NCBI RefSeq assembly: GCF_004010195.1
Contig: NC_057719.1
Span: 42,163,917 to 42,215,043 of the forward strand
Reading direction: 5' to 3'
DNA length: 51,127 nt
From: Chiloscyllium plagiosum
Lineage: Eukaryota
The notes under the pieces were generated by a model. It was given only the letters and a program-made list of their open reading frames with translations, had not been told where the DNA came from and ran no database searches. Shown in pieces: positions 1,057-47,709 of the stretch. Each line of letters starts with the position of its first letter. Positions within the stretch are counted from its first letter, which is position 1. Made by a program: the position numbers and the translations under genes.

Positions 1057-1189
1057 TTTACTAAACAATGCTGCAAAAACATCTTGATGGCAGTTCATAT
1101 CATGGATTTTTGTTAAATCTTCGTCATCTTCTGCCCGGGCTTCCTCAAATTTGGAACACTGGATTAGTAGATCTGCATCATCTATTTTT
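1057..1189 (-). CDS. inf2-like: INF2-like paralog exon ([44 protein letters not shown])
   Basis: Acceptor gttttcag, donor AAA|gtaaga, 133 nt. Matches DADLLIQL..FEEA.AED and H..VFA.LF.K. The gene continues beyond the left edge. Confidence 0.92.
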
Positions 1190-2589
1190 CTGAAAACAAT
1201 AATACTAACAATATAGAACATTTTATCTTGCAGTGGGTGAATTTGTGTCGGTGTTTTCTGCTGGAAACTGAGTATTTGCTGGAGAAAAGTTTCTGACAGT
1301 AAAATTTAATTGTCAGTGAGACCTCTGAGGCAAAATTCCCAAATCTTAACACTCTCATGGGAAAGGCTCCCACCCTTCATGTCTAGATTTTAAAAAGTGA
1401 AATATAATTTTTCCTTTCCTTTTCACATGAAGATGCAGACTCAAGTTCAGAGCAATAGAATTCAGTCTATTATTTTCAGATGCAAATGTCTCAACCATAA
1501 ACAGAAATTCTATCATTTTATGATCACATTTAACTTGAGAATTCTTGACTATGATGCCTTTATTAACCCTGTCTCATTACACATTAGCAAGAATAAAATG
1601 GTTCCAGAACATATTGTTATAAGGAATTGTCCCAACTATAAAACTCATCCTTCAAGCAACCTTGTCTAATTTAATTTGTCCAATATTTATGGAGATTAAA
1701 ATCTTCCATCCTTTTTGCATTATGCCTCCTACAATCTCCCTTTATTCAGGCTACTTGGATCTAGGAATACCACAGCGATACTTGATCATGACTTCATCTA
1801 ACATGGCTATCTTCAACGGACATGAGCTATGGCTGACCATTCTCTGTTTAAAATATAGGACTGAATTTTCTCATTTCTGGCAGCATATTTTTCTCAACTG
1901 ACCCCTGGTCCATCATGGCCCATTCTGTGTTTCATCCCATTTGTTATACAACCGTCCTCTTCAGTACTCATCTCCTGGAATCATGTGGCATAAGAGGTGG
2001 AAGTGCTCATCAATGCTGGGACTTTGTTACTGTTAGACTGAATTTAAGCTTCAAGGATTAAGTGGAGACATCTGCCCCTCTGGACGCAGGTGGAGGCGGC
2101 CACAGGAGCAGGTGAGTGCTGAGGTGGCTGTTTTGAAGGCAAACCTTAGTTCTCCTACACGTTGGCCTAATTTTATAAAATGTTGCTTGGCCCTCTGATC
2201 CTTGTTCACCCCTTATACCACCTATGCCACTTCAAACTCCTAGACTACCTCCATAGCTCCTCAATCAGTGACCACTATGGGTCGATATCAGTCGCCATGT
2301 TGGGATGAAAAGAACAATAAACATCTCGCGGACCAATAGAGACTTCATTCATTTATGTTACTGATGGAAAAATCCCTTTTATTCATAAATCCAATCAAAG
2401 ATTTCATATTCCTTAAAGTGGTCAATCTGTTATAAAACAAACATCTATTCAATAATCACCTCAAATAAGCCAATTCTTTTATACCCTCTTAAGATTGTCA
2501 ATCAAATTGTACTCACACTCCACTGGGATGGGAGGTTTTCAAGCTTTGCAAACTCAACCACGCATTTATAATAGGTTTATCTTTAGAAA

Positions 2590-3952
2590 CAGCCTTTGGG
2601 GGATGTTATACTGATAAAAGGGATAGCCATGGGGACATCCATGGGCCCCAGCTATATCTGCCTCTTTGTCGGATACATGGAACAGTCCATCTTCTGCAGT
2701 TATATTGGCACCATTTCCCACCTTTTCCTCCACTACATTGATGACTGTATTGACGCCACCTTGTGCTCCCATGAGGAGGTTGAACAGTTCATCAACTTCA
2801 CTAACACCTTCCACCCTGACCTTAAATTCACCTGGACCATCTCGGACACCTCCCTCCCCTTCCTGGACCTCTCCGTCTCCATCTCTGGTGATCGACTCAA
2901 CACAGACTTCTATTTCAAAACCACAGATTCCAACATCTACCTGGTCTACACCTCCTCCCACTGCTCCCCCCCCCCCCCCCCCCAGTAAAGATGTGATCCC
3001 TTACTCCTAATTCCTCCGCCGTATTTGCTCCCTGGAGGAGCAATTCCACTCCAGGACATCCAAGCTGACCTCCTACTTCAATGACCACAATTTCCCCTCC
3101 CATGTGATTAACAATGCCCTCCAGCACATCTCCTCCACTTCCTGCACCTCTGCCCTTGAATCCCACCTCTCCAACAGCAACAACCCCCTGGTCCTCACCT
3201 TCCACCATACTAATCTCCGGATACAGTGCTTTATCCTCTACCATTTCTGCACCTACAATCAGACCTCACCACTAAACATATATTTCCCTCCCCATCCCTA
3301 TCTGCATTTTGCAGAGACTTTTCCCTCTGAGACTCCCTCGTAAGATCCACGCCCCCCCCACCATCAATCCCCTCCACACCCGCCACCTTCCCTTGCTGCC
3401 ACAAGCAGTGTAAAACCTGCACCACACCTCCCCCCTCACTTCCGTCCAAGGCCCCAGTGGGTCTTTTCACATCCAAAGAGATTTGTCTGCACATCCAAAC
3501 ACCTCATCTACTGTATCTGTTGCTTTTGATACAGTCTCCTCGATGTCGGGGAGACAGGACGCCAACATGCTGAATGTTTCAGGGAACATCTCTGGGGCAC
3601 ACGCACCAAACAACCCCACCGCTCTGTGGACTACCACTTCAATTTCCCCCCCACACCACTCCGCCAAGGACATGCAAGTCCTGGGCCTCCTTTACCACCA
3701 ATTCCAAGCCACCTGACAACTGGAAAAAGAATGCCTCATCTTCCGCTTTGAAACCCTTTCACCTCATAATGTCAACACTGACTTCACTAGTTTCCTAATC
3801 TCCCCTCACCTCACCTCATCCCAGATCTAACCGTCCAACTCGGCACCGCCCTTTTGACCTGTCCTACCTGTCCATCTTCCTTCCCACTCAACTCTCCTGC
3901 TCCTCAGATGCTGCATGACCCATTGTGTTTTTCCAGTGCCACAATTTTCGAC
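2590..3952 (+). mobile_element. Penelope-like retroelement, degenerate (RT C-half, GIY-YIG region, terminal repeat remnant)
   Basis: GIAMGTSMGPSY..LFVGY.E, YIDD, LKFT and LPFLD motifs. Downstream LIYCI..GET-like GIY-YIG remnant. The end (~3895-3950) resembles the terminal sequence at 18634-18700. Confidence 0.88.
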
Positions 3953-4639
3953 ACAAATGTTATACTGAAGTCAATTGAAACTGCAGGAACAGATGGAATT
4001 TGTTTTCTAGACTGCAACTGATAGCCTGTCAATTAATGTACGATAACAATATATTTTCACTCTAGCTGAAAATGGAGCCAAGCTCTTTTCAATTGTTAAA
4101 AAGCTGATGATGAAAATAACTTCAGATCATGATCTGCTCCCAAAGAACATGCACGATTCCACCATAAATTAGTGACTCCCACAATGAAAATTAAGACTCT
4201 TGGAGCAGCAAAAACAGAGTCTATTTGAACTCAGGACTGATTTCAATGGCCTGGTAAGTTTAACTTTCCCACTTGTTTGATTTATGCCTCAGACTTTCTC
4301 CTACTTACAAAAAAATGGGATCTATCAGAAATGGGGTTTGGAATTCCACATCTAAGATCACCCATGTCATTTCTAAAGGTCTCTGCAGTTGTCCTATCTG
4401 TGGAAATCTGATTCTTGTGTTCACTCTTTGCTACGAGGTATGTTTTGGATTTAATTTCATATTTATCAAACCCGAGTGCTGGAAGACCACTTAATGTTTG
4501 GAAATACCCATATGTTTTATTTCTTATGGAATCTGCAAGAATGGTTTTCTATTACTCCCTTGTGATGTTTTGCTATAAAGTAGAATTTGAAATGTCAGCA
4601 ACTTTAGAAAACAGTTGTTTGAATGTAGTAACTAAAAGA

Positions 4640-5780
4640 ATCTTCGATTTATGATGCAGTTTATGTGGATTTCAGCAAAGCATTTGACAAGGCTAATAAA
4701 GAAGATAAAAGAACATCAGGTTCTGGATAATTTGGAAGCTTGGATTCAAAACTGGCTAAGTGACAGTAGACAGGGGGTGGTGGTAGAAAGCTGTTTATGT
4801 GAATGGAGACTGGTGTCAGTGGTGTACCACAAGGATCAGTGCTGGGTCCCTTATTGTTGATTATGTATATATAAGTGATATACAAGAAAATGCGGAGGGA
4901 TGATAAATAAGTTTGTGGATGACACAAAGATTGGCGGGATGGTTGACAGTGAGGAGGAAACTGTGAGATTACTGGAGGATATATCTTGATTGGTCAGATG
5001 GGCAGATAGTGGTAGATGGAATTTACCCTGATAAATGTGAGGTGATGCACTTTGGAAGACATAACAATACAAGGAAGTACTCAATGAATGGCAGGACACT
5101 ATGAAGTTCAGAGGAAAAGGGGTTCTTGGGGTACTTCTCCACAGATTCCTAAAGATGGCAGTCAGGTTAGTAAGGTAGTTAAGAAGGCATTTGGGACACT
5201 TGCCTTTATGAATTATGTCATGGATAACAAGAGCAGGGAGGTTATGTTGGAGCTGTACAGGACTTTGGTTAGGCCACAGCTAGAGTACTGAGTGCATTCT
5301 GATCACCACACTGTAGAAAGGGTATAATTGCATTGGAAGGGGTGCAAAGAAGGTTCACCAGGAAGTTTCCTTTATTGGAGCAGTATAATAATGAAGAGAG
5401 GCTTTGTAGAGCAGCTTAGTGGGGACCTGAGTGAGGTGCATAAGATTATGAGGGACATGGACAAGATGGATAGAGAGCAGCTATTTCCCTTATTTGAAAG
5501 GTCAATTCCAATCAGGCATAATTTAAGGTTAATGCCAGGAGGTTTAGAGGTTTTGAGGAAATTGTTTTATCACAGAGAATTGGGAATCTGGAATACATGG
5601 CCTGGGAAGGCATTTAAGACAGGAAATCTCACAAACTTTAATAATAACTTGGATGAGCACTTGAAATGTTAGGCAATGGGCCAAGAGCAGGAAAATGGGA
5701 CTAATGCAGATTTAGAATAGTTTTGTCAATGCTGGTTCAATGTACCAGAGGCCTCTTCTGTGCTGTATGATTCTATGATT
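4640..5780 (+). mobile_element. CR1 LINE, 5'-truncated (RT and 3' end)
   Basis: Degenerate DFSKAFD, SGVPQGSVLGP, FVDDTK and LYRTLVRPQLEY motifs. Ends in a tatgattctatga tail. Confidence 0.88.
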
Positions 5781-6050
5781 TGATCATTTTGATGGTGAAG
5801 TGACATCTCATTTCTAAAAAGATGAAATTACATCTTTATCTTCACTGAAAAAGAACTACCTTTAATTAGAATTCAATTTTCAATGTTTTCCTGTCTGTGA
5901 ATCTCAAGTTACAATTTATACACAAGTCAAAGTCTTTATTTCTAAGTAGATGCTTCCAGTAAATGTATATACCTTAAATACTGACTAAAACAATGTATTA
6001 GATTGCATTTTCCAAGCAGTAGCTTTTATTATTGTAGGAATAGTCCTTAC

Positions 6051-6084
6051 CTCAGATTTGGCAGTGCTTCCAGCAAATGAAGAC
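6051..6084 (-). CDS. inf2-like: INF2-like paralog 34-nt exon (GLHLLEALPNLR)
   Basis: Acceptor ctattgtag, donor AG|gtaagg. Corresponds to GLQLLDVLARLR. Phases 1 and 2 fit the neighbours. Confidence 0.88.
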
Positions 6085-6374
6085 CTACAATAGAAAGAGA
6101 TAATTCTTGTCAAATAGTTCAAAGCACAGTAATATCATTCATTTACCTTCTTTGTACGCAAGAACCAATTCATTTGGCCAAGTAATGTTTTTGAATCACT
6201 GACATGCTCTTTTCACAAAACAACATTATTTTTGTTTTTGGAACATTATAGTGATATTTATTTGATTTGATGCTGCTCAAAGAACACCTTGTCTGTTAAT
6301 GTCACATACCTAATATTTAGATATACACATCCCATCATTTTTAACCATTCACGTTATTTTGTAATATGGACTAC

Positions 6375-7222
6375 CATAGAGCCATCAAGCCATATAGAAT
6401 GGAAACAGACCCTTGGGACCAACACATCTGTACTGACTAGACATCCCAATCTGACCTAATCCCATTTGCCAGTATTTGGTCCATATCCCTCTAAACCCTT
6501 CTGATTCATATACCCATCCAAGTACCTCTTAAATGTTGCAATTTGTAGCTGCCTCCACATCACTCTCTGGCATCTCAGTCCATACACGCACTACCCTCTG
6601 TGTGAAAAAGTTACCCCTCAGGTCTTTTTAAAATCTTTCCTCTGTCACCTTAAAATTATGTCTGCTAGTTCTGGACTCCCCAGCCTAGGAAAAGACCTTG
6701 GCTATTCACCCTATCAATGTCCCTCATGATTGTATAAATCTCTATAAAATCACCTTAGTCTCTGATGCTCCAGGGAAAAAAGCCCCAACATAAGCAGCCT
6801 CTCCCTATAGCTCAAACCTTCCATATCCAGCAACATTCCTGTAAATCTTTTCTGCACCCTCTCAAATTTAAAAATACTTGTCCTATAGAAGGGCAACTAG
6901 AATTGTACACAGTATTCCAAAAGTGGCTTCACCAATGTCCTGTAAAGCTGCAACATGACATCCCAACTCCTACACTCAATGTCATCACCAATGAAGGCAA
7001 ACATGTCAAATGCCTTCTTCACCACCCTGTCTACCTATGACTCCACTTTCAAGGAACTAGGTACCTGCACCCCTAGGTGTCTTTGTTCGGTAACACCCCC
7101 CAGGTCCCTACTATTAACTGTATGAGTCCTGCCCTGGTTTGTCTTACCAAAATACAACACTTCACATTTATCTAAACTAAACTTCATCTGCCACTCCTTA
7201 ACCCATTGGCCCATCTGATTCA
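6375..7222 (-). mobile_element. CR1 LINE 3' fragment
   Basis: WQMKFSLDKCEVLYFG motif and a CR1 3' UTR shared with the copies at 11141 and 26165. Confidence 0.88.
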
Positions 7223-8739
7223 TAGAAATATCTCTTGTATTCGATATGTCAGGACAATTAGTTTCAAATTAGGAAGTTAAGATAATAAGGGAAGTGTAAT
7301 GGGATAGATTTTTTTGTAGCTCAGTTACCGGCAAGGATCACTGATCTACACTGTTGTAATAACCTCAAGAGCCAAGTGGATATATTTGTAAAGGGACAAT
7401 AGATTATGGAATAAGATGAAAGGAAAGATATAGAGGTTTGTTGGGTATAGTTGTTATTTTTTTATTTGAAAACCACTTACGTTCTTATTATTGGAAGTAA
7501 AAAGCCTAAGGTATGAACCCCAAATTCTTTTTTGCAGGTGAACAATATTTATTCTTACAATACCAGCACCATAAATGTGTAGGAGCTGGAACAAGTCACT
7601 CAGAGCCATTGAACTGAATCAAGCCTGGTCAGTTCATTGATACTTTTCACCAATTTCTTTATAGCCTCATCTAATAAAAAACATACTAATTTCAATTTTG
7701 ACATGTCAGATTAGTTTTTTAATCTTTGTTGATTTAGATAAAGAAACAACTATCTTATATCTTTTAAACTGCCTGGTAGATTTAACAAATAAACATATTC
7801 TTTTGCCACTAGTAAGGGGAAAGTTCAGTTTAGAGATTTCTTTACCTTTAATTCCACTAACATAATTGACTTTAATTCTATATTGGTGACTGGGAAACAT
7901 TAGATGGAATTTAATGCCCCCACTGATGGTGAATTTGATGGTTGGTGCGTGGGGATCCTGCTGCCTATCCCCTCTGCGCTGATTAAATCTGTGACAAGAT
8001 GGCTCATACCTTCCCCTTATACCACCACAGAGATTCTTAACTGGACAATTTCTGAGTACTTAAGAGCCTCATCCTGCTACCACTGGTGTTAAGCCAGTGG
8101 CAGGTCAGGTACTTGCTATATATAAAGTCCAAAAATCAAACCCGGTTTACTAGCAGGCTTGAGGTGAGATCCCTCATTCAAAGGCACTCAAAGCTGGATG
8201 GAGGGATGTGGCATTGGGGAAATAGTTACTGAGAGCTGCCCCTGCCCTTGCTACCAACTCCCCTTCTCCCTCACCATGATCCCCATTCCATAACTCCCCC
8301 TCTTGTGATCTGTGGCCTGGATACAACGATGATGCTGGGGCTCAGGTGAGTGCATTACCACGAGCAGCCACATCTCCTTAATGGCACTGCAGAGCAATGA
8401 AGAGCGGTTGGTTCTGTTTGGCCATCAACTCTTAGTCTGTGGCAATTTGTCCTCCCACACTTTAGAAGTTGATTGCCATTTAATTCAATGAGCAATCTTG
8501 AAAGTGGATGACTGGATGATCTAGCCAGCTCTTTAACTGGTTAACAAGACTCCCATCGCTTGCATTAAATTGTGTCCATTATGGTCATTGCCTTAGTAGT
8601 CCTTTTGGATTGTATCAATAAATAGAGGAAGATGCCACAACAATCTATATCTAATACAAATATTATTTTTACCAAATAAAATAGACTATATAATATAGGT
8701 AATGTAAGATAAACAACACAAAATGTAGAGAAATATTAC

Positions 8740-8896
8740 CAATGAATTCATTTCTGAGTCTTGCTCGTTTTTGCAAGTTTGCAGTTCCCAGAATAAGAGC
8801 GTTGATCACACTCAAGAGTGATACCAGATAAGGAACATTATCTGTTTGGAGTTCACTCATAATGGCATTTAATCCATATAGATATCTCTGTGCATT
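8740..8896 (-). CDS. inf2-like: INF2-like paralog exon ([52 protein letters not shown])
   Basis: Acceptor ttctgacag, donor G|gtaata, 157 nt. Contains DNVPY..LLSVINA.ILG and [11 protein letters not shown] motifs. Confidence 0.93.
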
Positions 8897-8959
8897 CTGT
8901 CAGAAAGAAACATACAATAATATATTTATTCTAATTGTGTATATTTATGTATTATATCA

Positions 8960-11010: not shown

Positions 11011-11140
11011 ACAGGATGGGCAATAAAAAAGTCTAATTAAAAATAGGCTAGAAATTTCAAAAGAGCATAACAAGGACAAATAGATCAGAGTCAACAGAGT
11101 ATCCAGCCAGCTGATTCTGAAAGTACAGCTCCAATACTGA

Positions 11141-12150
11141 GAGTCATAGGGTCATAGAGATGTACAGCATGGAAACAGACCCTTCGGTCCAACCCACCCC
11201 TGCTGACCAGATATCCCAACCCAATCTAGTCCCACCTGGCAGCACCCGGCCCATATCCCTCCAAACCCTTCCTATTCATATACCCACCCAAATGCCTTTT
11301 AAATGTTGCAATTGTACCAGCCTGCACCACATCCTCTGGCAGCTCATTCCAAACATGTACCACCCTCTGTGTGAAAATGTTGCCCCTTAGGTCTCTTTTA
11401 TATCTTTTCCCCTCTCACCCTAAACCAGTGCCCTCTAGTTCTAGACTCCCCGACCCCAGGGAAAAGACTTTGTCTATTTATCGTATCCATGCCCCATATG
11501 ATTTTGTAAACTTTTATAAGGTCACCCCTCAACCTCCGATGCTCCAGGGAAAATGACCCCAGCCTGTTCAGCTCTCCCTATAGCGCAAATCCTCCAACCC
11601 TGGCAACATCCTTGTAAATCTTTTCTGAACCCTTTCAAGTTTCACAACATCTTTCCGATAGGAAGGAGACCAGAATTGCACGCAATATTCCAACAGTGGC
11701 CTAACCAATGTCCTGTATAGCTGCAACATTACCTCCCAACTCCTGTATTCAATACTCTGACCGATAAAGGAAAGCATACCGAACGATTTCTTCACAAACC
11801 TATCTACCTGCACCTTCACTTTCAAGGCGCTATGAACCTGCACTCCAAGGTCTCTTTGTTCAGCAACACTTCCTAGGACCTTACCATTAAGTTACTAACT
11901 GTACCTCTTATGCTCACATCCAAATCATTTATATAAATGACAAAAAGTAGAGGACCCAGCACTGTTCCTTGTGGCACTCCACTGATCACAGGCCTCCAGT
12001 CTGAAAAACAACCCTCCACCACCACCCTCTGTCTTCTAGCTTTGAGCCAGTTCTGTATTCAAATGGCTAGTTCTCCCTGTATTCCGTGAGATCTAACCTT
12101 GCTAACCAGTCTCCCATGGGGAACCTTGTCGAATGCCTTTCTGAAGTCCT
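11141..12150 (-). mobile_element. CR1 LINE 3' fragment with internal deletion
   Basis: LYRTLVRPLLEYCVQFWSPSYRKD..KLERVQKRFTRMLPG motif and a (tctatgac)-like tail. Same family as 26165-28216 but missing an internal segment near 11890. Confidence 0.92.
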
Positions 12151-15505: not shown

Positions 15506-15586
15506 CTAGGAGTGCTGACAGTTGAAATTCTCCCTTGTTTTTTCGCTGCAGAGTTGATGTTATACTCCCTGTGGTAAAATACTTGC

Positions 15587-15702
15587 CTTGTAGTGTTGTA
15601 GTGCATATAAAACCCGATCATGACCTTCTGGAGAGTACATGCAGAGTGCTGCCAACAAATCAAACACTTGTTTCTTCACCAGGATCACTGATGTATTCAG
15701 AG
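15587..15702 (-). CDS. inf2-like: INF2-like paralog exon ([39 protein letters not shown]), GC donor
   Basis: Acceptor cctacttacag, 116 nt, donor AAG|gcaagt. Matches [20 protein letters not shown]. This frame is absent from the ORF track. Confidence 0.92.
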
Positions 15703-18869: not shown

Positions 18870-19272
18870 CTTGTAGCAGTTTTTTAATCTGGTTTTCATC
18901 ATTCACAAGCTGCTCGATTCCATTTGGAGAATTCATCACAGCTCTTACACAGCTCACACAGGTGAGTTGTAGAAGGGCATCATAAATCTTCGGCCCTCCT
19001 CTGCTTGACAACTTATCTAAGGCTTCCAGCATCAGATCGAGGCCACTGAGCTCTAGAAATTCTACCATCCACATGTTACTACTATTTGGCAGGTACTTCT
19101 TCAGGTGATAGTAGTTTCTAAGAGTAGGATCCTTCAGCAAATCGATGCAGAATTTAGGATCTCCACTTTCAAAATCATCTTCTGGATAACTTGTAACTGC
19201 TTTTCTCTTCCCTTTAAGAAGTGCTTGCTTCAGCAAAATCCATCTCTGCCGTGCATCTACTTTACTAGCCAT
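18870..19272 (-). CDS. inf2-like: INF2-like paralog, first coding exon (MASKVDARQRWILLKQAL...LLQLTCVSCVRAVMNSPNGIEQLVNDENQIKKLLQ)
   Basis: Acceptor tttccacag, exon starts at 19278, ATG at 19272, donor CAAG|gtacgg. Strong similarity to the INF2 N-terminus and DID (WMV.FLE.SGLDL..EAL, LLQLTCVSCVRAVMNS). Confidence 0.93.
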
Positions 19273-20832
19273 ATTTTCCTGTGGAAACAAGTAAAATGTA
19301 TCATTAGTAGTACATTGTGATGCAGTAATGCATCCATGTATCATGCTGCATGAGGGCCTGCTCCAGATTTCATAGGTAGCAGGTATTACGAATGAATCTG
19401 TATGTGGGTTGGATGTTACTGTTAATGATATAGAGAAAATGACTGTTTACCATCTTTATTAAATATTTAATTGAGAGCTTTACTGGAACCATTCTTGTGT
19501 TTGGAAAGAAACAAAAATATTCACAGGTGTTGGAATAGACACCAAATCCATAGGCTGTGACCAGTTTGGTTAGGTTAGGGGCTGCAAGTGTGAAGCTGAT
19601 TCCCTTCCCATTAATGTGGATAAGTGAATTATATATTTGACATTGGAAAACTCCAATAACTGTTGCAAAAGTTAGACTTCAAAACACCTTTTAAAATGTC
19701 CCTTTGAATTAGGGTAAAATTGAGATTTTTGGAAGCACACCATTTTGGAGATATGCCTATGTAATCTGTTTGCCTGGAAGGAAGAAGCTCAAGCACAATG
19801 CTATTGAAATAACAAATGAATGTTTTTAAACCTTTATATAGTAACATGGAATATAGACAGTAGCTTTCTCAGACACAGAGATAGACAAGGATGATATTGT
19901 TATGAATAACCTGGATTGGTTTGTGTCAACAACCAAGCAGAATGCTTGTCTTCTTTTTGAAAAGAAAGAAACAGAACAGACCTTCTGGAAATTTAGTGCA
20001 CATAGAATCTCCGAGTTAGGTCTTGCTTGTGAAAATCAACGTACAAGACCAGAGACCACCGCAACAATTTTGAAAAACGCTGGAAGTTTAACATAATGTG
20101 GCAGGTAGAAGAGAGGGGGTTATGGAATGACTGTTTCTGTAATGCTGCATATCTGTTATAATGAGGTACACGATGAGACGGTTTTAAGATATGTCCCAAT
20201 TGTATTAGCTGGTTAATATTGATGTTCATTCTCAGTGCACAAAAACAGAGTCTGTCCTGCCCCTTTGTCTGTCAGAATTGCCTCTTCATTCAAAAGCTTT
20301 GACCTTACATTAATCTTCCAAACTGGCGAATTACAACACAATGCCCTTTCAGATCATTCTAGATCAAATGGGCACTATAGATATGCCTGCCAACTTCCAA
20401 ATCATTTGAGCTATTGTTTAAAAATCATATCAATGTTTTGAAAGATGGGGACCCAGTGGAGATTGATGAGGATACAGGCATCAGTATTGTGAACCATTTG
20501 CAGCTTGTGTATGGAAGAGTTCAGAGGTTTTTGGGAAGTCAAATTTTGGAGTTACAATAGTCTTTTAGTTACACAAGGTATGAGCTGAGATTAAGGTGAT
20601 TGTAGTGTTGGTGGTGGAGTAATGTTATGGAGGTGAAAGTGCCTCTCTGCTTAGGATACAAACCTAGACTGTAATGTATATACAGTGATCTCCCTGGAAT
20701 ATGGCATGCATGGGGAATGGGGTTGCCAGTTAGCTGAATTTTACATGAGAAATACTAGTGGTAGCTGGGAGAACTCCATTCAATACTATCACAAGTGTGG
20801 ATTTGAAAAAATACAAGTGGCCAGAACCGCTT

Positions 20833-24742: not shown

Positions 24743-25545
24743 AAGACAGGACAGAACATCCCTGGTGCTCACCTTCCACCCTACCAACCTTCGAATAAAC
24801 CAAATCATCCGCCGACATTTCCGCCACCTTCAAAAAGACCCCACCACCAGGGATATATTTCCCTCCCCACCCCTTTCCGCCTTCCGCAAAGACCGTTCCC
24901 TCCGTGACTACCTGGTCAGGTCCACGCCCCCCTACAACCCACCCTCCCATCCTGGCACTTTCCCCTGCCACCGCANNNNNNNNNNNNNNNNNNNNNNNNN
25001 NNNNNNNNNNNNNNNNNNNNNNNNNNNNNNNNNNNNNNNNNNNNNNNNNNNNNNNNNNNNNNNNNNNNNNNNNNNNNNNNNNNNNNNNNNNNNNNNNNNN
25101 NNNNNNNNNNNNNNNNNNNNNNNNNNNNNNNNNNNNNNNNNNNNNNNNNNNNNNNNNNNNNNNNNNNNNNNNNNNNNNNNNNNNNNNNNNNNNNNNNNNN
25201 NNNNNNNNNNNNNNNNNNNNNNNNNNNNNNNNNNNNNNNNNNNNNNNNNNNNNNNNNNNNNNNNNNNNNNNNNNNNNNNNNNNNNNCCACTCCACCCTCT
25301 CCTCCCTGACCTATCACCTTCATCTCCTCCCCCACTCACCCATTGTACTCTATGCTACTTTCTCCCCACCCCCACCCTCCTCAAGCTTATCTCTCCATGC
25401 TTCAGGCTCACTGCCTTTATTCCTGATAAAGGGCTTTTGCCCGAAACGTCGATTTCGCTGCACCATGGATGCTGCCTGAACTGCTGTGCTCTTCCAGCAT
25501 CACTTCTCCAGAATCTGGTTTCCAGCATCTGCAGTCATTGTTTTT
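24743..25545 (+). mobile_element. Penelope-like element 3' part spanning an assembly gap, with terminal hammerhead motif
   Basis: VLTFHPTNLRINQII.RHF..LQ.DP.....F..PP..AFRKDRSLRD.LV linker, similar to 3190-3400. Terminal repeat at ~25410-25545. Confidence 0.88.
24976..25286. other. Assembly gap (311 N)
   Basis: Run of N. Confidence 0.99.
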
Positions 25546-29068: not shown

Positions 29069-29070
29069 GA

Positions 29071-36400: not shown

Positions 36401-36459
36401 TTAAAGTAGAGTCATCTGTGAATTAGTTTTGATGTCATTTTTCATTTTCTTCAGTTCTT
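36401..36459 (-). CDS. INF2: Probable INF2 terminal exon, coding in the non-CAAX isoform (EELKKMKNDIKTNSQMTLL*)
   Basis: Good acceptor ctttgtttcag, phase-1 compatible, short basic peptide, followed by AT-rich UTR-like sequence. No recognisable sequence homology. Confidence 0.55.
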
Positions 36460-37589
36460 CTGAAACAAAGATCAGACAAAATCAAGTTATATTTTTTAGA
36501 CACATGAAACAACTCAAGTGACTTCATTATTTTCTGGCTATTTTATTAGAATTTAAAGGTTTTATTTATTTCCCCAGATTCCCTCTTTGCGGTATGATTT
36601 CATTGGGTCTAGCTGTCCTTCAATACCTCAGCAAGTTGGCCATTATACAAGTAAAAACCTTAACAGTAACAGTACAGAATTTATCTGCAAAGGACATTTT
36701 TGCTAAGCCCCTTTGGCTTTCCATCTGTGTATACCCATGGTAGAATTTGCTGCAGAATTAACTGAAGTACAACTAATTTTCATTACTTTCTCCCAGTGCA
36801 GCATAGGCAGAGACTGAAAATAAACTTTTCGGATCTGTATGCCTCAGACTTAGCGCCCTTTAAGGCAATTTTCCAAGAATTTCCGAGAAGGAGTTTCTCA
36901 TGCTGTGAGTGACATGTTGGAAATTCAAGGCAACACTCATGTAAATTTCCAGTATGTGCTTAAAAGCTGCCAAGTGAAGGCTTCCCATTGAGAGTACAAA
37001 CTAAAACCATCACTTGATGCGAATCTACAGACATCAGGAGAATGTAAATGAAGATAAAAGTGCATTTAGGAAAGCACATGAATATAACTAGCACGATAAT
37101 TAAGCTTCATGGTCACAAGTACAATTACTGTTAAGATAGTAAACTATACTACAGATCAATTTCCTATTTGATGAAATGAATATGATAATGGAAATAAGTT
37201 AAAAATGTGGTCTCCTTAAAAAGAAAAAAACAACTGACACATTGGACAATCCAAGTGAATAATTTAGTGTGTAAGAAAAAGTGAATCATGTTAAATGTTG
37301 TTGTGTTGGTTTTTCAGATGTATATAACGTAAGATTAATTTAAAAAAAGGTTTAAAGTACAAATTTATAAAGGATAAAAACATCTGAAATGTAATATATA
37401 ATGTTTATGTTGACCTTTGGTTATAATCAATAATAGTAAATTACAATGTAATCTACCAGTTTCTGATTAAGTGATTGATCAAACATAATCATTTTAAAAA
37501 CTTACCTTCCATTTGAGATAATGGTTTGTGTCTAGGTAGTCCTTTGAACCGTCTAATTAAACTACTTTTGCTATCACTAAAAAAATGCA

Positions 37590-38211: not shown

Positions 38212-38267
38212 TTAGTGCAATAGACAGCTTTTTTTTAGTTTATTGCTTTTATTTTCGGAATGGTCAC
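38212..38267 (-). CDS. INF2: INF2 CAAX-isoform cassette exon (GDHSENKSNKLKKSCLLH*)
   Basis: Acceptor aaaacag. The 57-nt exon 38211-38267 ends TAA G|gtacgt. A lysine-rich run plus C-L-L-H-stop parallels the mammalian INF2-CAAX tail (..KKLCVIQ). Confidence 0.85.
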
Positions 38268-39414: not shown

Positions 39415-39620
39415 GTTATGAGACATGCCTGAAGCAAGTGGGATTTGAACCTAGACCTTCTTGCCACAGGTAGGGAGATGACCACAGTGCCACTAATGTC
39501 CTTGGTGCAGTCTTTCTAGTAATTTTTATCAACCTATGTGGACACACGTCCAAGAGATGTGGGATTTGAACCTTGGTCTCTTGGCTCAGAGGCAGGACAC
39601 TACCACTGTGCTTCAAGCAC
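39415..39620 (-). mobile_element. Two tandem tRNA-like SINE heads
   Basis: B-box ggttcaaatcccac occurs twice on the minus strand (~39440, ~39560) with similar flanks. Confidence 0.5.
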
Positions 39621-40689: not shown

Positions 40690-41215
40690 GACCAGAAGGA
40701 ATAGGCACAGGAGTAGGTCATTGGCTGTCTTGAGCCTGTTCCACCATTCAATAGGATTACGACCGATCTGACATACCTCACACATTTCCTGCCCTTTCTT
40801 CATAAAGCTTGATTTCTCAGCTGATTACGAATCTCAGTCTTAAATATACTAGAAGAGTCTGCCCCACAGCTCTCTGTGGTAAGAATTTCCAAAGACGCAC
40901 AGCCCTTGCTGACACTAATTTCCTCCTCATCTCAGTTTTAAAATGGTGCCCCGTAATTCTGAGACCATGCCTCTGGTCCTAGACTCTCCCATAAGGAGGA
41001 ATACATCCTCTCAGCATTTACTTTGTCAAGTCACTTAAGAATCTTATATGTTTCAATGAGATCACATCTCATTCTTCTAAACTCCAATGAGCAGAATCCC
41101 AACCTGTTTCGCCATTGCTCATACTAGAGATCCTACTGAACCTTCTCCAAACTGCTTCTGATGAAATGATACCTTTCCTTAATTTAGGGGACCAAAACTG
41201 TAAATATGTGCAGTG
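40690..41215 (-). mobile_element. CR1 LINE 3' fragment
   Basis: QFWSPKLRKGII..EAVWRRFSR motif and a CR1-type 3' UTR. Confidence 0.82.
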
Positions 41216-41533
41216 TGTGTATGTGTTCCTTCTGTCTACGAAGAACATGGTCCTGAGTATTAATACATGTAGCTTCAAGTTCAGGGAAGTGTACCACACT
41301 GTAAGGCTGACTAACAATCCTAAAACCAGTGAAAGGTAAAAATATTCAACGATTGTTTTTTTTCCCCCAGCAACACACGGTTAATTTCACAAATAAACTG
41401 CACCTTAAATCTGGAAAGGCCAGAACTATTTTAGCTGAAGCTTAATTTAAGATGCATTTTCAAAATGTATGAAATGTAACAGGATTACAGTATTGATGGA
41501 GTGAGTGTTTGGAGTAAACAGAAAAGAAATTAC

Positions 41534-42250
41534 CTTTGAGTTTTTTGCTTTTCTCATCTAAAGAGTTTCTGGTAGATGATTTTGGTAAAGATGACCATGA
41601 AGCAGATCGAGAAGAACGAGTTTTTGAAGGTGTAGTATGATCAGTGTGCTGGACTTTTGATTTTGAATGGGAGATATTTGTGTCAGGTATGCTTTGGTCC
41701 ACATTTTGTGATACTGTTATTGCAGTGGCCATGCTCGTGATTGAGTCAGGCACACTAGGTGTAGGGTCAACATGCTTAACCACAACTTTATTTTGGGAGT
41801 TTATATCATTAACAAGTTTAGATAGATTCCCATCTACAGTAGCATTAGGGCAGAAATTGTTTTCCTTTTTGTCTGCTGTATTGACATTATCTTCACTGCG
41901 ACATTGTTCCAACTGTTCATGATCTTTTCCAAATAGATTTTCACAGTCAGATCTGGGGTTTTCCTTGCAAATATTTTCTTTATTTACTTCATTTGTATTT
42001 TTATCAGTCACAGCTTCTTGTCCTAATACAGTTTCAGATTTATTTCTTTCAGAGTTGGAAACTTGTTCAGCAGACAGCTGCTGTGTATTATTTTGCACCA
42101 TGTCTTTTTGAGTAGGCAACTCTTCAACGTGTGGTTGTTGGGTAACAGCTTCCATTACGGGATCAGAAACAGCATCTGAAATTTGAGGTATGGTTGTACA
42201 TTGAGGCGCCAATACTTTTCCTTTGTCTTCTGCAGAAGGGGCACTTTGTT
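41534..42250 (-). CDS. INF2: INF2 long, poorly conserved C-terminal exon (EQSAPSAEDK...DEKSKKLK)
   Basis: Acceptor atttacag, donor AAG|gtaatt, 717 nt with an open frame, phase 1 to 1. Overlaps ORF 41460..42212. Confidence 0.88.
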
Positions 42251-43797
42251 CTGTAAATATATACAGATGAATAAAGTGTTGTACAGCTATGAAAGTGAGA
42301 GTTTATGCCATTGTCTATAGAGGCATTTTAAATAGTTCAAATGCTGGAAAATACCTGATATGCCCATTCCAAGCCACACAATTAAAAAAGTAAAGCAGTT
42401 ACCACAAAAACAAATACTTGAAAATATATTTAATTTTACTTAAACTGCTTGAAATGATGGCCCTTGATCAGCTATAAAGCATTTCAAATGTTTCTTTAAT
42501 TAGAAAGAAAGGCATAATCAACACGTAATAGAGCACAAATTTATATCAGAATTATTGAAACAGGATATAATACATATATTACGTATATTTAGCAGGATAC
42601 TGGCAATTCAAAATTTGTGCAACTACTCATGTGGGCAATTTCAGCCAAACATGTAGGTAGCACACATGTATCAAAATAAAACAAATCAAGAGGAGAGAAA
42701 AGTTAAGCAAAAACTTAGATTTTTTTTGAACCAGCAAAAAAAAAAGCAACTGAAGTTTAACTAATACAAGAGTGAAATATCATGCTTGGGAAATTAGATT
42801 GGATGACACAAATGGATGGATGAATAAACCGCTTTGATAAAACTGATAATTAAAGGCATATACTGGGTTGTCATACAGGAAAATCAAGTTGAATTCAACT
42901 GGATTAGTGTAAACTCATCACAGAAATCTCTGGGGCATACATTTCACACAAGAAACTGATAATGACATACATAAGTGTTAGATGTATCCTTTATAGTCTT
43001 ACACTGGGTTAGATCCAAGTTTTTGCACCTGATTTAATGCTTTAGCCGAAAGCACTATTTAGATATTGCATGGTACATTCTACCTTGTACTCATTAGTCA
43101 GACAAAAAGATAGAAAATAGCAATTCCATTGCAAACAATGTAAACAATCTCACAAAAAGTAAATTTGCCATTATAGCAAGCGACTTCAGTTTTCAATAAT
43201 GGAATAAACAAGCACCCAGACCAATAAGTCAAAACAAAATCTCTCATTTTCATTCTGTATTTCAAGAATGGAGAAAATCCCCAGTCATGGATGGTTTTGG
43301 GAAAAAAAGTCAATTCCCATTGAGCACTGCTTTTAACTAAATAAAAAGACAAAATTCAAAACAGAAGATCCCTGAATAAGTTTCAAAAGACTTCAGGTTA
43401 TCATGCAATTCTGTACTGGTTAAAAATTATTTGACAGATTTGTAAAGGTATACAAATTCAAGGTACAAATTAAGCTTTGTATTCGTTTTTAATTAGATAT
43501 GCACACTCCAATGCATTCCAGTAAGTGACTTCAAAGCACGTGCCCTGCAGCATATTAAGCATCAAGTAATATGGAAGTAAAACCTTTCAGATAATACAAG
43601 GCCATTATTTATTTGCCTTTAAAAGAATTGAAAATAACAGGGATAGGGAAAATTAAATTAGGAAACCAGGACTTGCAGATACCCCATTAAAAAAAATTGA
43701 GGTGACAATTAGGTCAATTTGGAAATGCTGCTATTTTAGCGAAAAGCTAGCTAAGCTTACAGTTTGAAGCTAAATGCATGCAGGCATGTGCTCTTAC

Positions 43798-43962
43798 CCA
43801 GTGGTATTTTCAGCGTAGGTTTCTCAGTAACTGAACTTTTAGGAGCAGACAGAGATTCGCACCTGCTCCTGGCAGTCTTCTTCAATTGAAAACCCTTCCT
43901 TATGTCTGACAGAAGAGCATCAATAATACATCCCTCCTCTTGTTTTATTGATGATTTATGAA
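43798..43962 (-). CDS. INF2: INF2 exon encoding WH2/DAD (KQEEGCIIDALLSDIRKGFQLKKTAR...)
   Basis: Acceptor ttttatag, donor G|gtaaga, 165 nt. Contains the INF2-diagnostic IDALL.DIRKGFQL(R/K)KT motif. Confidence 0.95.
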
Positions 43963-44313
43963 CTATAAAACAAAGGTGGTCACAATTTACTAGAGCTTCT
44001 TCAATATTAAAAAATCATTTCACAAATTTAGAGCAAACATAAACATCTTCAAGTCAAACGAAAACTAGTAATAAATGGAGGAACTTGACATATTGTCAAG
44101 TTTAGATCAACAATTCATCAGATGCAAACTGGATCCCCATCTCATATTGATTGCTTTTATATTAATATAGAGTTTGAAGAACAATTCCACACTGCATTTG
44201 CTCTTAACCAAAGGTTTCTTAAATGTATTACGTTTATTTATTAAAACAATAGTAAATTCATTTAAGTTTTTCTTTAAATCAAGACAGAACTCCTTTCTAT
44301 GATTCACACTTAC

Positions 44314-44419
44314 TAACTTGTCCATTCTCTCCTTTTTGTCTTTTTGCTTCTTCTTCTTCCTGAAGTTTTTGTTTCCTCTTCTCTGCTTTTGCAATCTGCT
44401 CCTTTCTGAGCTTATTTTC
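44314..44419 (-). CDS. INF2: INF2 exon, post-FH2 coiled coil ([35 protein letters not shown])
   Basis: Acceptor gcttaaag, donor A|gtaagt, 106 nt. Matches ENKDRKEQAAKAERRKQQL of INF2. Confidence 0.92.
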
Positions 44420-44669
44420 CTTTAAGCACAAAAAAAATGCTACTCATTTTCCAACACCAACATAGCAATGATGAGGCTAGGCTAAAACAATTACTCACAG
44501 ACCCAGAATGAGAGAGTTTATTATAAGAGGAGGGATCACTCTGAATGCGTGTCACTCTTTCATTCAATGTAAACAGACAGCCTTCTACAACAATTGTGTA
44601 ATGTCTGCTAGTACATTCAAAGCCCTTTTCAACTGACAGTCATCAAACGAGTAAACTCTGGTGGCAATG

Positions 44670-44980
44670 ATGGCCTTTTTTTTCATTTATTTATGGGATG
44701 TCACTGGCTAGGCCAGCGTTTATTGCCCATCTCTGGTTGCTCTCGAAGTGGTGGCGGACTACCCTCTTGAACTGCTGCATTCCATTTGATGTAGGGACAC
44801 CATCAATGCTGTTATGAAGGGAGTTCCAGAGTTTTGACCAGGCAAAGGAACAGGGAAATATTTTGAACTCTAGATGATGTGTGACATGGAGGGGAACTTG
44901 CAGGTGGTATGTATTCCCATGTACATGCTGCCTTTGTCCTTTTGGATGGTACCGGTCCTGGTTTAGAAGGTGAATTTGGG
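44670..44980 (-). mobile_element. LINE-derived 3'-end repeat, also present on + at ~28270-28500 and ~29680-29910
   Basis: Shared SK(L/S).NS..NS..G.PT..G.QQFK...HH peptide remnant. Confidence 0.6.
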
Positions 44981-46020
44981 AAGGCGGGTGGGGGGGTGGT
45001 GTATATGGCTTGGCAGGTGTTTGGACAGCCAGATTTAGGCCCTTACATGGGCATTTCATGCCCACAGGTTTGGTAATATAATGCTCGTGTGAGGCTAATG
45101 TCATAAAATACTAAGAAAAGGAAATACTCCCGTTGCAAAAAGTTTAATTAGTATCCATTTTAATAACTTTAAGGTTTATTGTGTGATGTCAATTTACAAT
45201 GCTTTAAATTAAGGTCTTCATCACAAAACATGCAACAGACTTATGTTGCATGTTGAACAGTGAACCATATTTTGGGGCTTGGATTTTAAAATAGAAGTAG
45301 ATTGATGTGATGGTATTTTCTTTGAAAAACAGGTCAGGAATTCATTTGGAACAGTGCATAATTTCCAAGCAAACATGCAAATGCAATGAAGAGCCTGGGA
45401 GAACCCCGACAATTTAATGGACAGAATGTTCCTCTTACTTAGCTTACAACAGGCCAGAAAACCAATAGATTTAATTTCTTTTAGGGCAGGGGAACTAGTC
45501 TTCATAGATGTAGTACTTTTGCTTTATGAAGCTTATAGGCCAGAGGACACTGGATAGAAATCTTCAAGTGTTTAGAACAGGTGAAGCCCAAGTCATTAAA
45601 ATTGTGAAAATGTAAAGTCAGCAAAATTGTGAAAGTGTATCAATATTGTTTCCACAATCCAAAGAGGAGAAACACAGGAAGGGGTTAAGTAAAAACTTAA
45701 ATAGAAGAGACAGGAGTGAAGTTTCTGTGAATTGTGAAGAGGACATAATTGCAAAATCGATCGAAACTTGATTTTGCCGTTTGTGTTAAGATCAGTGGAA
45801 TATAAATGTAGCTATATTGGCTTTTCTCTCTCTCTATTTTCATTATAAAAGGTGTTGTGTATTAAAGGAACAGCTGCAGCTTTGTGTGAACATGTTTCAG
45901 TGACAAACCAACTGCAGAAACTAAATATACCAAGTCAGGTTTCGTTCCAGGATCTGACATAACCAATATTATCATCAGCTGGAATTATAACAGCTGTATA
46001 TTGAAGTTATGAAGAATTAC

Positions 46021-46185
46021 CTTTATGGCTTTGAGGAAACAATCTCTGAAGGTTCTGATAGTTCGAAATAGTTCCTCTAGTGATAATTTACTAACATCAT
46101 CACAGAAGTACTCAGCCAGTTTCTTCCTCTCTGACTCAATATCTTCCACGAGTTCCTTCAGCTTAATTGCTTCAGACAAACTTTC
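46021..46185 (-). CDS. INF2: INF2 exon, end of FH2 (ESLSEAIKLKEL...LAEYFCDDVSKLSLEELFRTIRTFRDCFLKAIK)
   Basis: Acceptor atttcag, donor AAG|gtaatt, 165 nt. Overlaps ORF 45985..46179. Confidence 0.95.
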
Positions 46186-46272
46186 CTGAAATCATAGTTT
46201 TAAAAAGAAAATAAAAAGTTTCACACTAGGCAACTAAAACACTCAATTATTTGAAGTTGCAGTTCTACTTGC

Positions 46273-46393
46273 CTGGATAGGTTTGTCGAACAGTAATTTT
46301 ATATCATCTGCTGATGACTTGACTTTACCACCAATCATCTTGAGGCGCTCCAAGAGGTTGACTGTATCCGACTGAAGTGAGTCCACACTCAAG
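46273..46393 (-). CDS. INF2: INF2 exon, FH2 (LSVDSLQSDTVNLLERLKMIGGKVKSSADDIKLLFDKPIQ), GC donor
   Basis: Acceptor ttttctggcag, donor CAG|gcaagt, 121 nt. Phases 2 and 0 fit both neighbouring exons. Confidence 0.88.
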
Positions 46394-47049
46394 CTGCCAG
46401 AAAATATAGTCTCCAAGTTATAAAAATGGTGGATTGGACAACAATTAACAGTGCAATGTTGATGGATGGGATAAGTGAGAAAGGGAAAAGAAACAATAGC
46501 ATATATTTCACCAACACGGTAATCTTGGCTATTGTTTTATCTCAGCTGATTTCCTTTTCTGGTACTTATCCCACACCGTGTTTCTAGGAGACAGTCTAGA
46601 TTCTACCCTTTCAAAATACATGCTATAAGAAATGTTAACTGTAGAAGTAAATTTTCCCTTAGTCAGCTGGAAGATCTTCGCAAACCTCATTTTATGTATA
46701 GGCTAGCTGAGATTGGGATTTGAACTCTGATCTTCTTACCGGACCTCAAAGCTTGCACTTTTTGACAAGATTTTAGATTAAGTTATGATAATTATCCTCA
46801 AACACTGTAGCTCCAAGATTTTTTTTAATTAGTATAAAATCAAACAGAAATTAGTAGATGTCAAAAGTCAATTTGCCTTAACAACAGAATATAACAACCT
46901 CTGTTCAGTTCTGTTGATGTGCCTTAATTTTCTCATGCTGTTGAAAGAGTCTACTTTATTTAGTAAATAAATGTCATTCCAGTCACTATTTAAGGAAACT
47001 CCACTCAAAGTTGGACAACTAGCAAAAAAATTACAAATGGTCTTCTCAC

Positions 47050-47120
47050 CCTCCTGCTTTTGAAATATTTTTTAAGTCTTCAGGAAGATTCAGTAGATCT
47101 GGATGGGACTTTTCAATCTC
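47050..47120 (-). CDS. INF2: INF2 exon, FH2 (EIEKSHPDLLNLPEDLKNISKAGG)
   Basis: Acceptor attatag, donor GG|gtgaga, 71 nt. Matches EAEKSHPDLLQLPRDL of INF2. Preceded by an 82-nt intron. Confidence 0.93.
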
Positions 47121-47202
47121 CTATAATATGTGAAAAATCAAAAATCATTTATATACTAACCAACATAAAAAATATAGATGGAGAAATTGTAAAAGATATC
47201 AC

Positions 47203-47310
47203 CTCTATTGTATGATGGAGCAATGTAATTCGGGATCGGTTTGCTTTCGTTTCAGTTAGTTTTAGTAGAGTGTTGATTTTAAATCCATCTGCATTTCCTG
47301 TGTGACTGCC
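47203..47310 (-). CDS. INF2: INF2 exon, FH2 ([36 protein letters not shown])
   Basis: Acceptor catcag, donor GAG|gtgata, 108 nt. Contains the FH2 GFK..L.KL.ETK motif and lies within ORF 47149..47349. Confidence 0.95.
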
Positions 47311-47638
47311 CTGATGAAAGACAAAGCAAAACCAAGTCAAACTACGCATTTAAATATTTACACAAATGCAACAAACATTTTGTGAAAACAACTGTCACAG
47401 ATTTTGAGTAGGGAGAGTCTCTAATTTTGTACATCTGCAACAAGAATGGGCGACATTATTGTTTACTGGAAATAGTATACAAGGAAAAACAACTAAAATT
47501 TGCAAAAATTTACTTTGAAAAAGAAATCAATCTCTAGCGGTATAACATAATAATGTCTTCAATATTTTTTCAAAAAAATTGTTTAATCTGTTCTAACTTC
47601 CTAGAAGACACTGGTTAAACCTTTCACAAAATACGTAC

Positions 47639-47709
47639 ATAGTTAAGGAAGTTTCCAATTCGAAGAATCAGGTCACAGAAGATGGGTAGTCTTCTAGCAG
47701 AACGAAGAT
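47639..47709 (-). CDS. INF2: INF2 internal exon, FH2 domain (xLRSARRLPIFCDLILRIGNFLNY)
   Basis: Acceptor ttttgaccag, donor TAT|gtacgt, 71 nt. Peptide matches the INF2 FH2 segment LPIFCQLILRIGNFLNY. Confidence 0.93.

What the first reader, a model, noticed from the sequence alone, without database searches (positions are those of the whole stretch)
1057..47709. Tandem head-to-tail INF2 pair: a second, divergent INF2-like gene whose first coding exon lies ~16 kb downstream of INF2's 3' end
Seen: on the minus strand the INF2 C-terminal exons (47709-36401) come before INF2 N-terminal exons (19278-1057), which cannot be one colinear gene. The five downstream exons have clean splice sites, consistent phases and no stops despite clear divergence, which argues for a maintained paralog rather than a pseudogene. 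Known: mammals have a single INF2, with ADSS1 as the downstream neighbour (from memory). Inference: this is a lineage-specific tandem paralog. Whether it is a full formin or a DID-only protein cannot be seen. A DID-only product could bind DAD motifs of INF2 or mDia in trans.
Basis: partly seen in the sequence, partly recalled or inferred. Interest (0 to 1): 0.8.

Follow-up and report, generated by a model that had tools for sequence, protein, structure and literature searches.

The report
Shark INF2 twin split by assembly
Sharks carry a second copy of the actin-building gene INF2 right behind the first; it is a complete, spliced gene that this genome assembly cuts in two, most likely by flipping a block, and it is predicted to build actin filaments without the membrane anchor and with little of INF2's filament-cutting ability.

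Summary
The tandem pair is real, and the open question is settled: the downstream gene is a full formin, not DID-only. INF2's own N-terminal exons lie right of the window. The paralog's exons 1-7 run on the minus strand to -3829; exons 8-20 lie on the plus strand at 128488-154273, followed by ADSS1 and SIVA1. Two 500-N gaps bound the block between. Flipping it gives one 869-aa, stop-free gene sharing INF2's intron positions. Public contigs splice exon 7 to exon 8, and a close relative has one 865-aa model, 95% identical. RefSeq holds the gene as two halves. It occurs in 8 galeomorph sharks; trees place the duplication before the shark-ray split. It keeps the calmodulin site, DID, FH2 and DAD helix. 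It has a short FH1, no CAAX tail, and the WH2 leucine replaced in 6 of 7 species. It is likely a cytosolic, calcium-gated, weakly severing formin (untested). Birds carry a separately derived, FH1-FH2-only INF2 copy in the same slot; reptiles and amphibians have further copies. The gene is auto-annotated; my searches found no paper on it. Moderate interest.

The parts
18870..19272 (-). Paralog coding exon 1: ATG at 19272, calmodulin-binding helix (W11/L14/L18) and start of DID; splice acceptor opens the exon at 19278
15587..15702 (-). Paralog coding exon 2 (DID, A149-equivalent); GC donor
8740..8896 (-). Paralog coding exon 3 (DID, R218-equivalent)
6051..6084 (-). Paralog coding exon 4 (34 nt)
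1057..1189 (-). Paralog coding exon 5 (DID/dimerisation region). The gene goes on outside the window: exons 6 (-3061..-3202) and 7 (-3497..-3829; short FH1, FH2 start) on the minus strand, then exons 8-20 (FH2, DAD with degenerate WH2, non-CAAX end) on the plus strand at 128488-154273, followed by ADSS1 (172709-208828) and SIVA (250730-255564). 500-N gaps at -6316..-5817 and 116118..116617 bound the flipped block.
   Evidence: spliced joints
46021..47709 (-). INF2 proper: five FH2 exons (47709-47639, 47310-47203, 47120-47050, 46393-46273, 46185-46021). Its N-terminal, FH1 and first FH2 exons lie outside the window at 54975-77802, ATG at 77802.
44314..44419 (-). INF2 proper: exon after FH2
43798..43962 (-). 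INF2 proper: WH2/DAD exon with intact LLxDI and LKKT boxes
41534..42250 (-). INF2 proper: large C-terminal tail exon, with no counterpart found in the paralog
38212..38267 (-). INF2 proper: last exon ending in a CAAX box (CLLH) and stop
36401..36459 (-). Candidate alternative non-CAAX last exon of INF2 (in-frame, 19 aa); splicing not tested
24976..25286 (.). 311-N gap between the two genes; not needed to explain the arrangement

Best explanation
The downstream gene is a complete, spliced 869-aa INF2 paralog of sharks, split in this assembly most likely by a mis-oriented block, and it likely works as a cytosolic, calcium/calmodulin-gated actin-polymerising formin with weak actin-monomer binding and weak severing. 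Shown: 20 coding exons; order INF2, paralog, ADSS1, SIVA1 after flipping the block; a spliced exon 7-8 joint; intact orthologs; retention of the calmodulin-site residues, the DID residues A149, N110, Y153 and R218, FH2 I643 and the DAD helix; a short FH1; loss of the long tail and CAAX box; replacement of the WH2 leucine and threonine. Inferred from human INF2 experiments: DID-DAD autoinhibition relieved by Ca2+/calmodulin; FH2-driven nucleation and slower profilin-fed elongation; no ER anchoring; and, with a DAD that no longer binds actin monomers well, little severing and a damped calcium response, like the INF2-mDia1-DAD chimera. Gene structure about 0.95; mechanism about 0.55-0.6.
For: Two DID first exons in the genome. 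FH2 exons 51-90% identical to the whale-shark paralog on the plus strand at 128484-152565. A joined model with AG and GT/GC sites, phase 1 to 1 across exons 7-8 and no stop. Both block ends are exactly 500 N, whereas the other 15 of 17 N runs in 451 kb have other lengths. No near-identical inverted repeats at the ends. Loose ends at exon 8 read the end of exon 7 in 4 of 4 runs laid; 2 of 4 contigs have 31 or more letters on both sides, from two studies and two species labels. Hemiscyllium has one 865-aa model, 94.9% identical over 865 positions. 18 of 19 introns match INF2 in column and phase, the other in phase. dN/dS 0.30 against INF2 over 733 codons. Residue table: W11, L14, I92, N110, A149, Y153, R218 kept in 6 of 6 paralogs covering them; I643 in 7 of 7; L986 kept in 20 of 20 INF2 rows but Q in 6 of 7 paralogs; T989 in 19 of 20 versus 0 of 7. 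Roles of these residues: PMC9616786, PMC12871907, PMC12632326, PMC5140269, bioRxiv 10.64898/2026.08.14.744810.
Against: No biochemical or cell data exist for the paralog. Scyliorhinus keeps the WH2 leucine. The basic residue at 987 is kept in 7 of 7, so some actin binding may remain. A single L986 change was not tested alone in the passages I read; the 3L mutant also changes the helix. Deleting the basic region made human INF2 more active, not less. E969, a modelled DID contact, is not kept in any of 7 paralogs; R177 is G in 5 of 6; L18 is F or H in 2 of 6; K792 is R in 3 of 7. The paralog evolves 1.8-3.2 times faster than INF2 in 15 of 15 relative-rate tests, which also fits relaxed selection. 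The run types are guessed or unrecorded and give no tissue or level. The flip is inferred from transcripts, synteny and gap pattern, not from DNA reads across the gaps.
Confidence: 0.6

Rival explanations
1. Near-redundant duplicate: it behaves like the cytosolic non-CAAX INF2 isoform, keeps useful WH2 activity, and is retained for expression pattern or dosage under relaxed selection.
For: All domains are present; the hydrophobic box and one or two basic residues remain; Scyliorhinus keeps the leucine. The non-CAAX isoform rescues the calcium response in human cells. Faster rate and apparent absence in rays and Heptranchias.
Against: L986 is invariant in 20 of 20 INF2 rows from sharks to marsupials but Q in 6 of 7 paralogs. 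An mDia1 DAD lacking this leucine did not bind actin. The short FH1 and 39-42-residue tail (62 in one model) are consistent across species.
Confidence: 0.22
2. De-repressed formin: changes in DAD (E969, D979, basic box) and DID (R177) weaken autoinhibition, so it is a constitutively active cytosolic nucleator.
For: INF2 lacking the basic region raises F-actin. E969 is lost in 7 of 7, R177 in 5 of 6 (R177 as a disease site is recalled, not found). Bird second copies are modelled without DID and DAD altogether.
Against: A149, N110, Y153, R218, L977 and the calmodulin site are conserved over the whole clade, which is hard to explain without regulation. mDia1 DAD binds INF2 DID as well as INF2 DAD does.
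Confidence: 0.13
3. A real inversion broke the gene in this species or individual, leaving a 457-aa DID-FH1 product that could inhibit INF2 or mDia in trans.
For: The assembly shows the halves on opposite strands, and RefSeq annotates 457-aa and 399-aa genes. Two runs hold contigs that run from exons into introns.
Against: Spliced exon 7-8 contigs in two species labels. Both halves are intact and 95% identical to a one-piece ortholog. Both breakpoints sit in 500-N gaps. The 457-aa end is read-through of the exon-7 donor.
Confidence: 0.04
4. One INF2 gene mis-ordered, or a haplotype duplicate.
For: The assembly is gappy: 17 N runs in 451 kb.
Against: Two full exon sets, 57% identical in protein, no intron similarity, both genes in other sharks.
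Confidence: 0.01

Closest known systems
Vertebrate INF2 (human Q27J81; PDB 9azp)
   Same: N-terminal calmodulin helix, DID, dimerisation region, FH1, FH2, DAD helix; 19 intron positions or phases shared with shark INF2; E = 2.8e-219 for the whale-shark paralog against human INF2.
   Different: About 865 aa against about 1250-1300. FH1 region holds 9-28 prolines against 58-93 in well-assembled elasmobranch INF2s. LKKT box degenerate, no long tail, no CAAX.
RefSeq 'inverted formin-2-like' models of sharks (XP_043554369.1 + XP_043553490.1; XP_060684454.1; XP_048456060.1; XP_067895135.1; XP_038646164.1)
   Same: The same gene; own halves are 99.8% and 100% identical to the two Chiloscyllium plagiosum models.
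   Different: Automatic names only. Split in two here and in Cetorhinus; named plain 'inverted formin-2' in Hemiscyllium and Cetorhinus, where the true ortholog is called '-like'.
INF2-mDia1-DAD chimera and 3L WH2 mutant (engineered; PMC12632326, PMC5140269)
   Same: INF2 body with a DAD that binds actin monomers poorly.
   Different: Engineered, with the tail and long FH1 kept. The natural paralog keeps the DAD helix and changes the LKKT box; its activity is unmeasured.
Second INF2-like genes of birds, turtle, amphisbaenian, salamander and caecilians
   Same: INF2-derived duplicates without WH2. In birds, three fused gene models put the copy directly after INF2, and one of them continues into ADSS.
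   Different: Modelled as FH1-FH2 only (no DID or WH2 by Pfam). They nest with tetrapod INF2, and one origin with the shark gene is rejected (p-AU 3.3e-5). Position outside birds not shown; one caecilian copy is on a different contig from its INF2.
MWH proteins (DID-DD only formin derivatives; PMC5047451)
   Different: The shark gene has FH1, FH2 and DAD, so it is not of this kind.

Membership tests
Formin (FH2 protein) | FH2 domain above the Pfam cut-off | tested here: met
   PF02181 E 1.3e-67 for the own C-half, 6.2e-74 for Hemiscyllium
Formin (FH2 protein) | Barbed-end residues Ile (I643) and Lys (K792) | tested here: met
   I in 7 of 7; K in 4 of 7 and R in 3 of 7, including this species. 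Role of K792 recalled; I643A called elongation-deficient
Formin (FH2 protein) | Proline-rich FH1 before FH2 | tested here: met
   One 11-proline run here; 1-4 short runs in orthologs
Formin (FH2 protein) | Nucleates and elongates actin | not testable with these tools
   Needs pyrene or TIRF assays
INF2 subfamily | Descent from INF2 (tree and intron positions) | tested here: met
   Sister to elasmobranch INF2, SH-aLRT 95-98 in two trees with outgroups, unresolved in a third; 18 of 19 introns identical
INF2 subfamily | N-terminal 1-4-8 calmodulin motif (W11, L14, L18) and I92 | tested here: met
   W11, L14, I92 in 6 of 6; L18 is L in 4, F in 1, H in 1; motif defined. Binding itself untested
INF2 subfamily | DID with DAD-binding pocket | tested here: met
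   Drf_GBD and Drf_FH3 hits; A149, N110, Y153, R218 kept in 6 of 6
INF2 subfamily | DAD that is a canonical WH2 (LLxxI plus LKKT box) | tested here: not met
   Helix kept; L986 is Q in 6 of 7, T989 lost in 7 of 7. No Pfam WH2 hit in paralogs, hits in 3 of 3 shark INF2s scanned, though many true INF2s lack a precomputed WH2 hit too
INF2 subfamily | CAAX-bearing ER isoform | tested here: not met
   None of 7 paralog models ends in CAAX; no tail exon found between 152570 and 172700. An unseen alternative exon is not excluded
INF2 subfamily | Severing and depolymerisation | not testable with these tools
   Predicted weak
MWH-like DID-only proteins | No FH2 domain | tested here: not met
   FH2 exons present and spliced on

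The most novel reading that the evidence does not exclude
The slot between INF2 and ADSS1 has produced WH2-less INF2 offshoots more than once. Sharks kept a calcium-gated formin that polymerises but does not sever, and birds (probably all sauropsids) independently kept an FH1-FH2-only, unregulated one. These are undescribed vertebrate formins and natural experiments that separate INF2's polymerising, severing and ER-anchoring roles.
Probability: 0.4. Interest if true: 0.6.

Novelty: new variant of a known kind. Interest (0 to 1): 0.4.

Why it matters
INF2 is a human kidney and nerve disease gene whose WH2/DAD both inhibits it and lets it sever actin; which of these drives the calcium-induced actin burst is still argued (PMC12632326). 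A paralog that has long kept the calmodulin site, DID and DAD helix but lost the LKKT box, tail and CAAX is a ready natural variant to test that. It also tolerates changes at positions invariant in INF2. Practically, the finding corrects a flipped 122-kb block and a split RefSeq gene, and warns that the name 'inverted formin-2' is on the wrong copy in some sharks. It is a gene duplicate in a well-known family, not a new mechanism.

Tried and rejected
DID-only product: rejected. Mis-join at 24976-25286 making one gene: rejected; no reads were laid across that gap. Haplotig duplicate: rejected. Duplication inside galeomorph sharks: rejected by AU test, p = 0.005, with a long-branch caveat. One origin for shark and tetrapod second copies: rejected, p = 3.3e-5; gene conversion could mimic this and was not tested. 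Duplication before the bony/cartilaginous split: not favoured but unresolved in the FH2-only tree. No listed holder is on record as RNA; this is no evidence on expression. The upstream neighbour (TMEM179, recalled) was not tested, so left-flank synteny is open. dN/dS among orthologs could not be computed: only proteins were on hand for other species. No fold or complex prediction was run; either would pass by likeness to solved INF2 or mDia structures. Earlier scan findings: none. Supplements were not read; alignments in those of PMC12871907 and PMC9616786 could include shark sequences.
Full report
Source and observation. The window is G000 contig C10, 42163917-42215043. Its first paralog exon is 100% identical to a RefSeq 'inverted formin-2-like' protein of Chiloscyllium plagiosum. 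Coordinates outside 1-51127 below are contig position minus 42163916. The five downstream exons are as described: 19272-18870, 15702-15587, 8896-8740, 6084-6051, 1189-1057, in phase and stop-free, with one GC donor. The upstream exons are the C-terminal part of INF2 proper, with an intact WH2/DAD exon and a CAAX end. A genome search with exon 1 gives 2 matches, the second at 77413-77775, so INF2 has its own N-terminus. The two proteins are 57% identical over 733 core positions and share no intron sequence.

The missing half. On the left the paralog continues for only two more exons, to -3829, ending just inside FH2; none of its FH2 exons was found in the next 116 kb. They lie on the plus strand at 128488-154273, beyond INF2's 5' end, and are followed by an ADSS gene and a SIVA gene on the same strand. 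Two gaps of exactly 500 N, at -6316..-5817 and 116118..116617, bracket the block; the other 15 of 17 N runs in the 451 kb read have other lengths. That 500 N marks Hi-C scaffolding joins is recalled. The published genome of this species used short reads, stLFR and Hi-C (PMC7677710, passages); I did not confirm that it is this assembly. Flipping the block gives INF2, paralog, ADSS1, SIVA1 on one strand, matching the human order (recalled). The joined model has 20 coding exons and 869 aa, and joins phase 1 to phase 1 across exons 7-8. Its halves equal RefSeq XP_043554369.1 (440 of 441) and XP_043553490.1 (399 of 399); Hemiscyllium has one 865-aa model, 821 of 865 identical.

Transcript evidence. 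I laid 4 of the 24 listed runs. At exon 8, loose ends read the end of exon 7 in 4 of 4 runs. Matched across the two lays by run, length and depth, the 1547-base contig of X10 and the 271-base contig of X1 have more than 31 letters on both exons. The X2 and X7 contigs have only 30 letters on exon 8 and do not count as bridging. The X10 contig also skips intron 6 exactly. Run types are guessed or unrecorded, so level and tissue are unknown. No processed copy appeared in the genome searches (one search used a stricter first look).

Range and age. The paralog was found in 8 shark species: Chiloscyllium plagiosum, Hemiscyllium, Rhincodon, Stegostoma, Heterodontus, Cetorhinus, Scyliorhinus canicula and Mustelus, all galeomorphs (classification recalled). 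In 5 of the 7 other species one model carries DID and FH2. No paralog from rays or Heptranchias appears in the listed hits (120 of 348, 120 of 704, 28 of 28, 150 of 7393), though six ray INF2s do. No chimaera INF2 was retrieved. The paralogs form a clade with full support on a long stem. With cyclostome and invertebrate outgroups they are sister to all elasmobranch INF2 (SH-aLRT 95 and 98), but the node is open in an FH2-only tree. A galeomorph-only origin is rejected (p-AU 0.005). All mixture-model trees were 'quick' searches. The likely history is a duplication before the shark-ray split, with loss or non-annotation elsewhere. 18 of 19 introns match INF2 exactly, dN/dS between the two genes is 0.30 (dS 0.96), and the paralog has 1.8-3.2 times more unique changes in 15 of 15 tests.

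Anatomy. Human numbering was read from the alignment and tabulated over 7 paralogs and 20 INF2 rows; Stegostoma was left out because its model has an aberrant C-terminus, and Mustelus lacks most of the DID. Kept: W11, L14, I92 (calmodulin), N110, A149, Y153, R214, R218 (DID), I643 (FH2), L977 and I980 (DAD helix). Changed: L986 to Q in 6 of 7, T989 in 7 of 7, E969 in 7 of 7, D979 to N in 4 of 7, R177 to G in 5 of 6, L30 to F or I in 6 of 6, K792 to R in 3 of 7. FH1 has 9-28 prolines against 58-93 in elasmobranch INF2s, leaving aside the collapsed own copy. The tail after the DAD is 39-62 residues with no CAAX.

Mechanism. In human INF2 the W11/L14/L18 helix binds Ca2+/calmodulin and is needed for activation (PMC9616786, passages). 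The WH2 needs both its helix and its LKKT box to bind actin, and an mDia1 DAD lacking the leucine does not bind (PMC12871907, parts 1-3 of 7). Swapping in that DAD leaves polymerisation normal in vitro but greatly reduces the calcium response in cells (PMC12632326, abstract, introduction and section 12). The 3L mutant slows the response, and ER anchoring is dispensable (PMC5140269, passages). The N-terminus also binds filament sides through L30 (bioRxiv 10.64898/2026.08.14.744810, abstract, section 6 and passages). I infer a cytosolic, autoinhibited, calcium-gated formin that polymerises but severs poorly. Against this: removing the basic region made INF2 hyperactive, E969 is a modelled DID contact (PMC10368640, passages), and Scyliorhinus keeps L986.

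An unexpected parallel. Three bird-type database models hold two FH2 domains: INF2 followed by a second copy (Bubo, Hirundo), and in an unnamed one by ADSS as well. Separate second copies are annotated in six birds, a turtle, an amphisbaenian, a salamander and two caecilians. The five scanned have FH2 but no DID or WH2 hit. Those placed in trees nest with tetrapod INF2, and a single origin with the shark gene is rejected. These are automatic models; missing DID exons could be annotation gaps, and gene conversion was not tested.

Prior knowledge. The gene exists in RefSeq as automatic models. I found no paper on it: 'inverted formin' + shark + duplication gave 0; INF2 + elasmobranch + formin gave 0; INF2 + cartilaginous gave 7, none relevant by title; the listings showed none. 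The animal formin phylogeny PMC5047451 has no occurrence of 'shark' (passages). PMC11589041 gave nothing on paralogs (passages). Subscription journals are not covered.

Verdict. Observation confirmed; tandem paralog confirmed; DID-only idea refuted; assembly error identified. It is a new variant of a known kind. Interest 0.4; the most novel reading, repeated WH2-less INF2 offshoots in one genomic slot, has probability 0.4 and would merit 0.6.

Noticed in passing
Proteins P0121, P0024, P0124, P0237, P0238, P0240, P0242, P0244, P0246, P0250, P0272, P0308, P0326, P0377: Birds, a turtle, an amphisbaenian, a salamander and caecilians carry a second INF2-derived gene modelled as FH1-FH2 only. In birds it follows INF2, and in one model precedes ADSS. 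Trees favour origins separate from the shark paralog.
   Followed up: partly
Extended window coordinate about 64510 (L004), minus strand: INF2 proper has a frameshift inside its FH1 exon in this assembly and only 31 prolines in that region; the Chiloscyllium punctatum protein has a long intact FH1 there, so this looks like a collapsed repeat.
   Followed up: partly
Proteins P0262, P0137, P0003, P0130: RefSeq names are swapped in Hemiscyllium and Cetorhinus: the paralog is 'inverted formin-2' and the ortholog 'inverted formin-2-like'.
   Followed up: yes
window 36401-36459, minus strand: In-frame candidate alternative last exon of INF2 without CAAX, beside poly(A) signals at 36570 and 36547.
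   Followed up: no
window 15586, 46272; extended 60275: GC-AG introns: one in the paralog, two in INF2 proper, at different positions.
   Followed up: no
Extended coordinates about -50000 to -35000 (L014-L015): Broken LTR-retroelement or provirus-like ORF fragments (polymerase- and integrase-like by eye) in the left flank; observed only.
   Followed up: no
window 3-650, 2587-3750, 11121-12058, 48987-51127: Decayed non-LTR retroelement fragments (endonuclease/reverse-transcriptase-like by eye) fill the introns and flanks.
   Followed up: no
one search hit list (for example P0011, P0020, P0037, P0103): Many fish 'inverted formin-2' models are 236-240 aa, DID only; they may be short isoforms or models broken before FH1.
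   Followed up: no
G000:C33:36411090-36411263: A second SIVA-like match with one stop codon on another contig.
   Followed up: no
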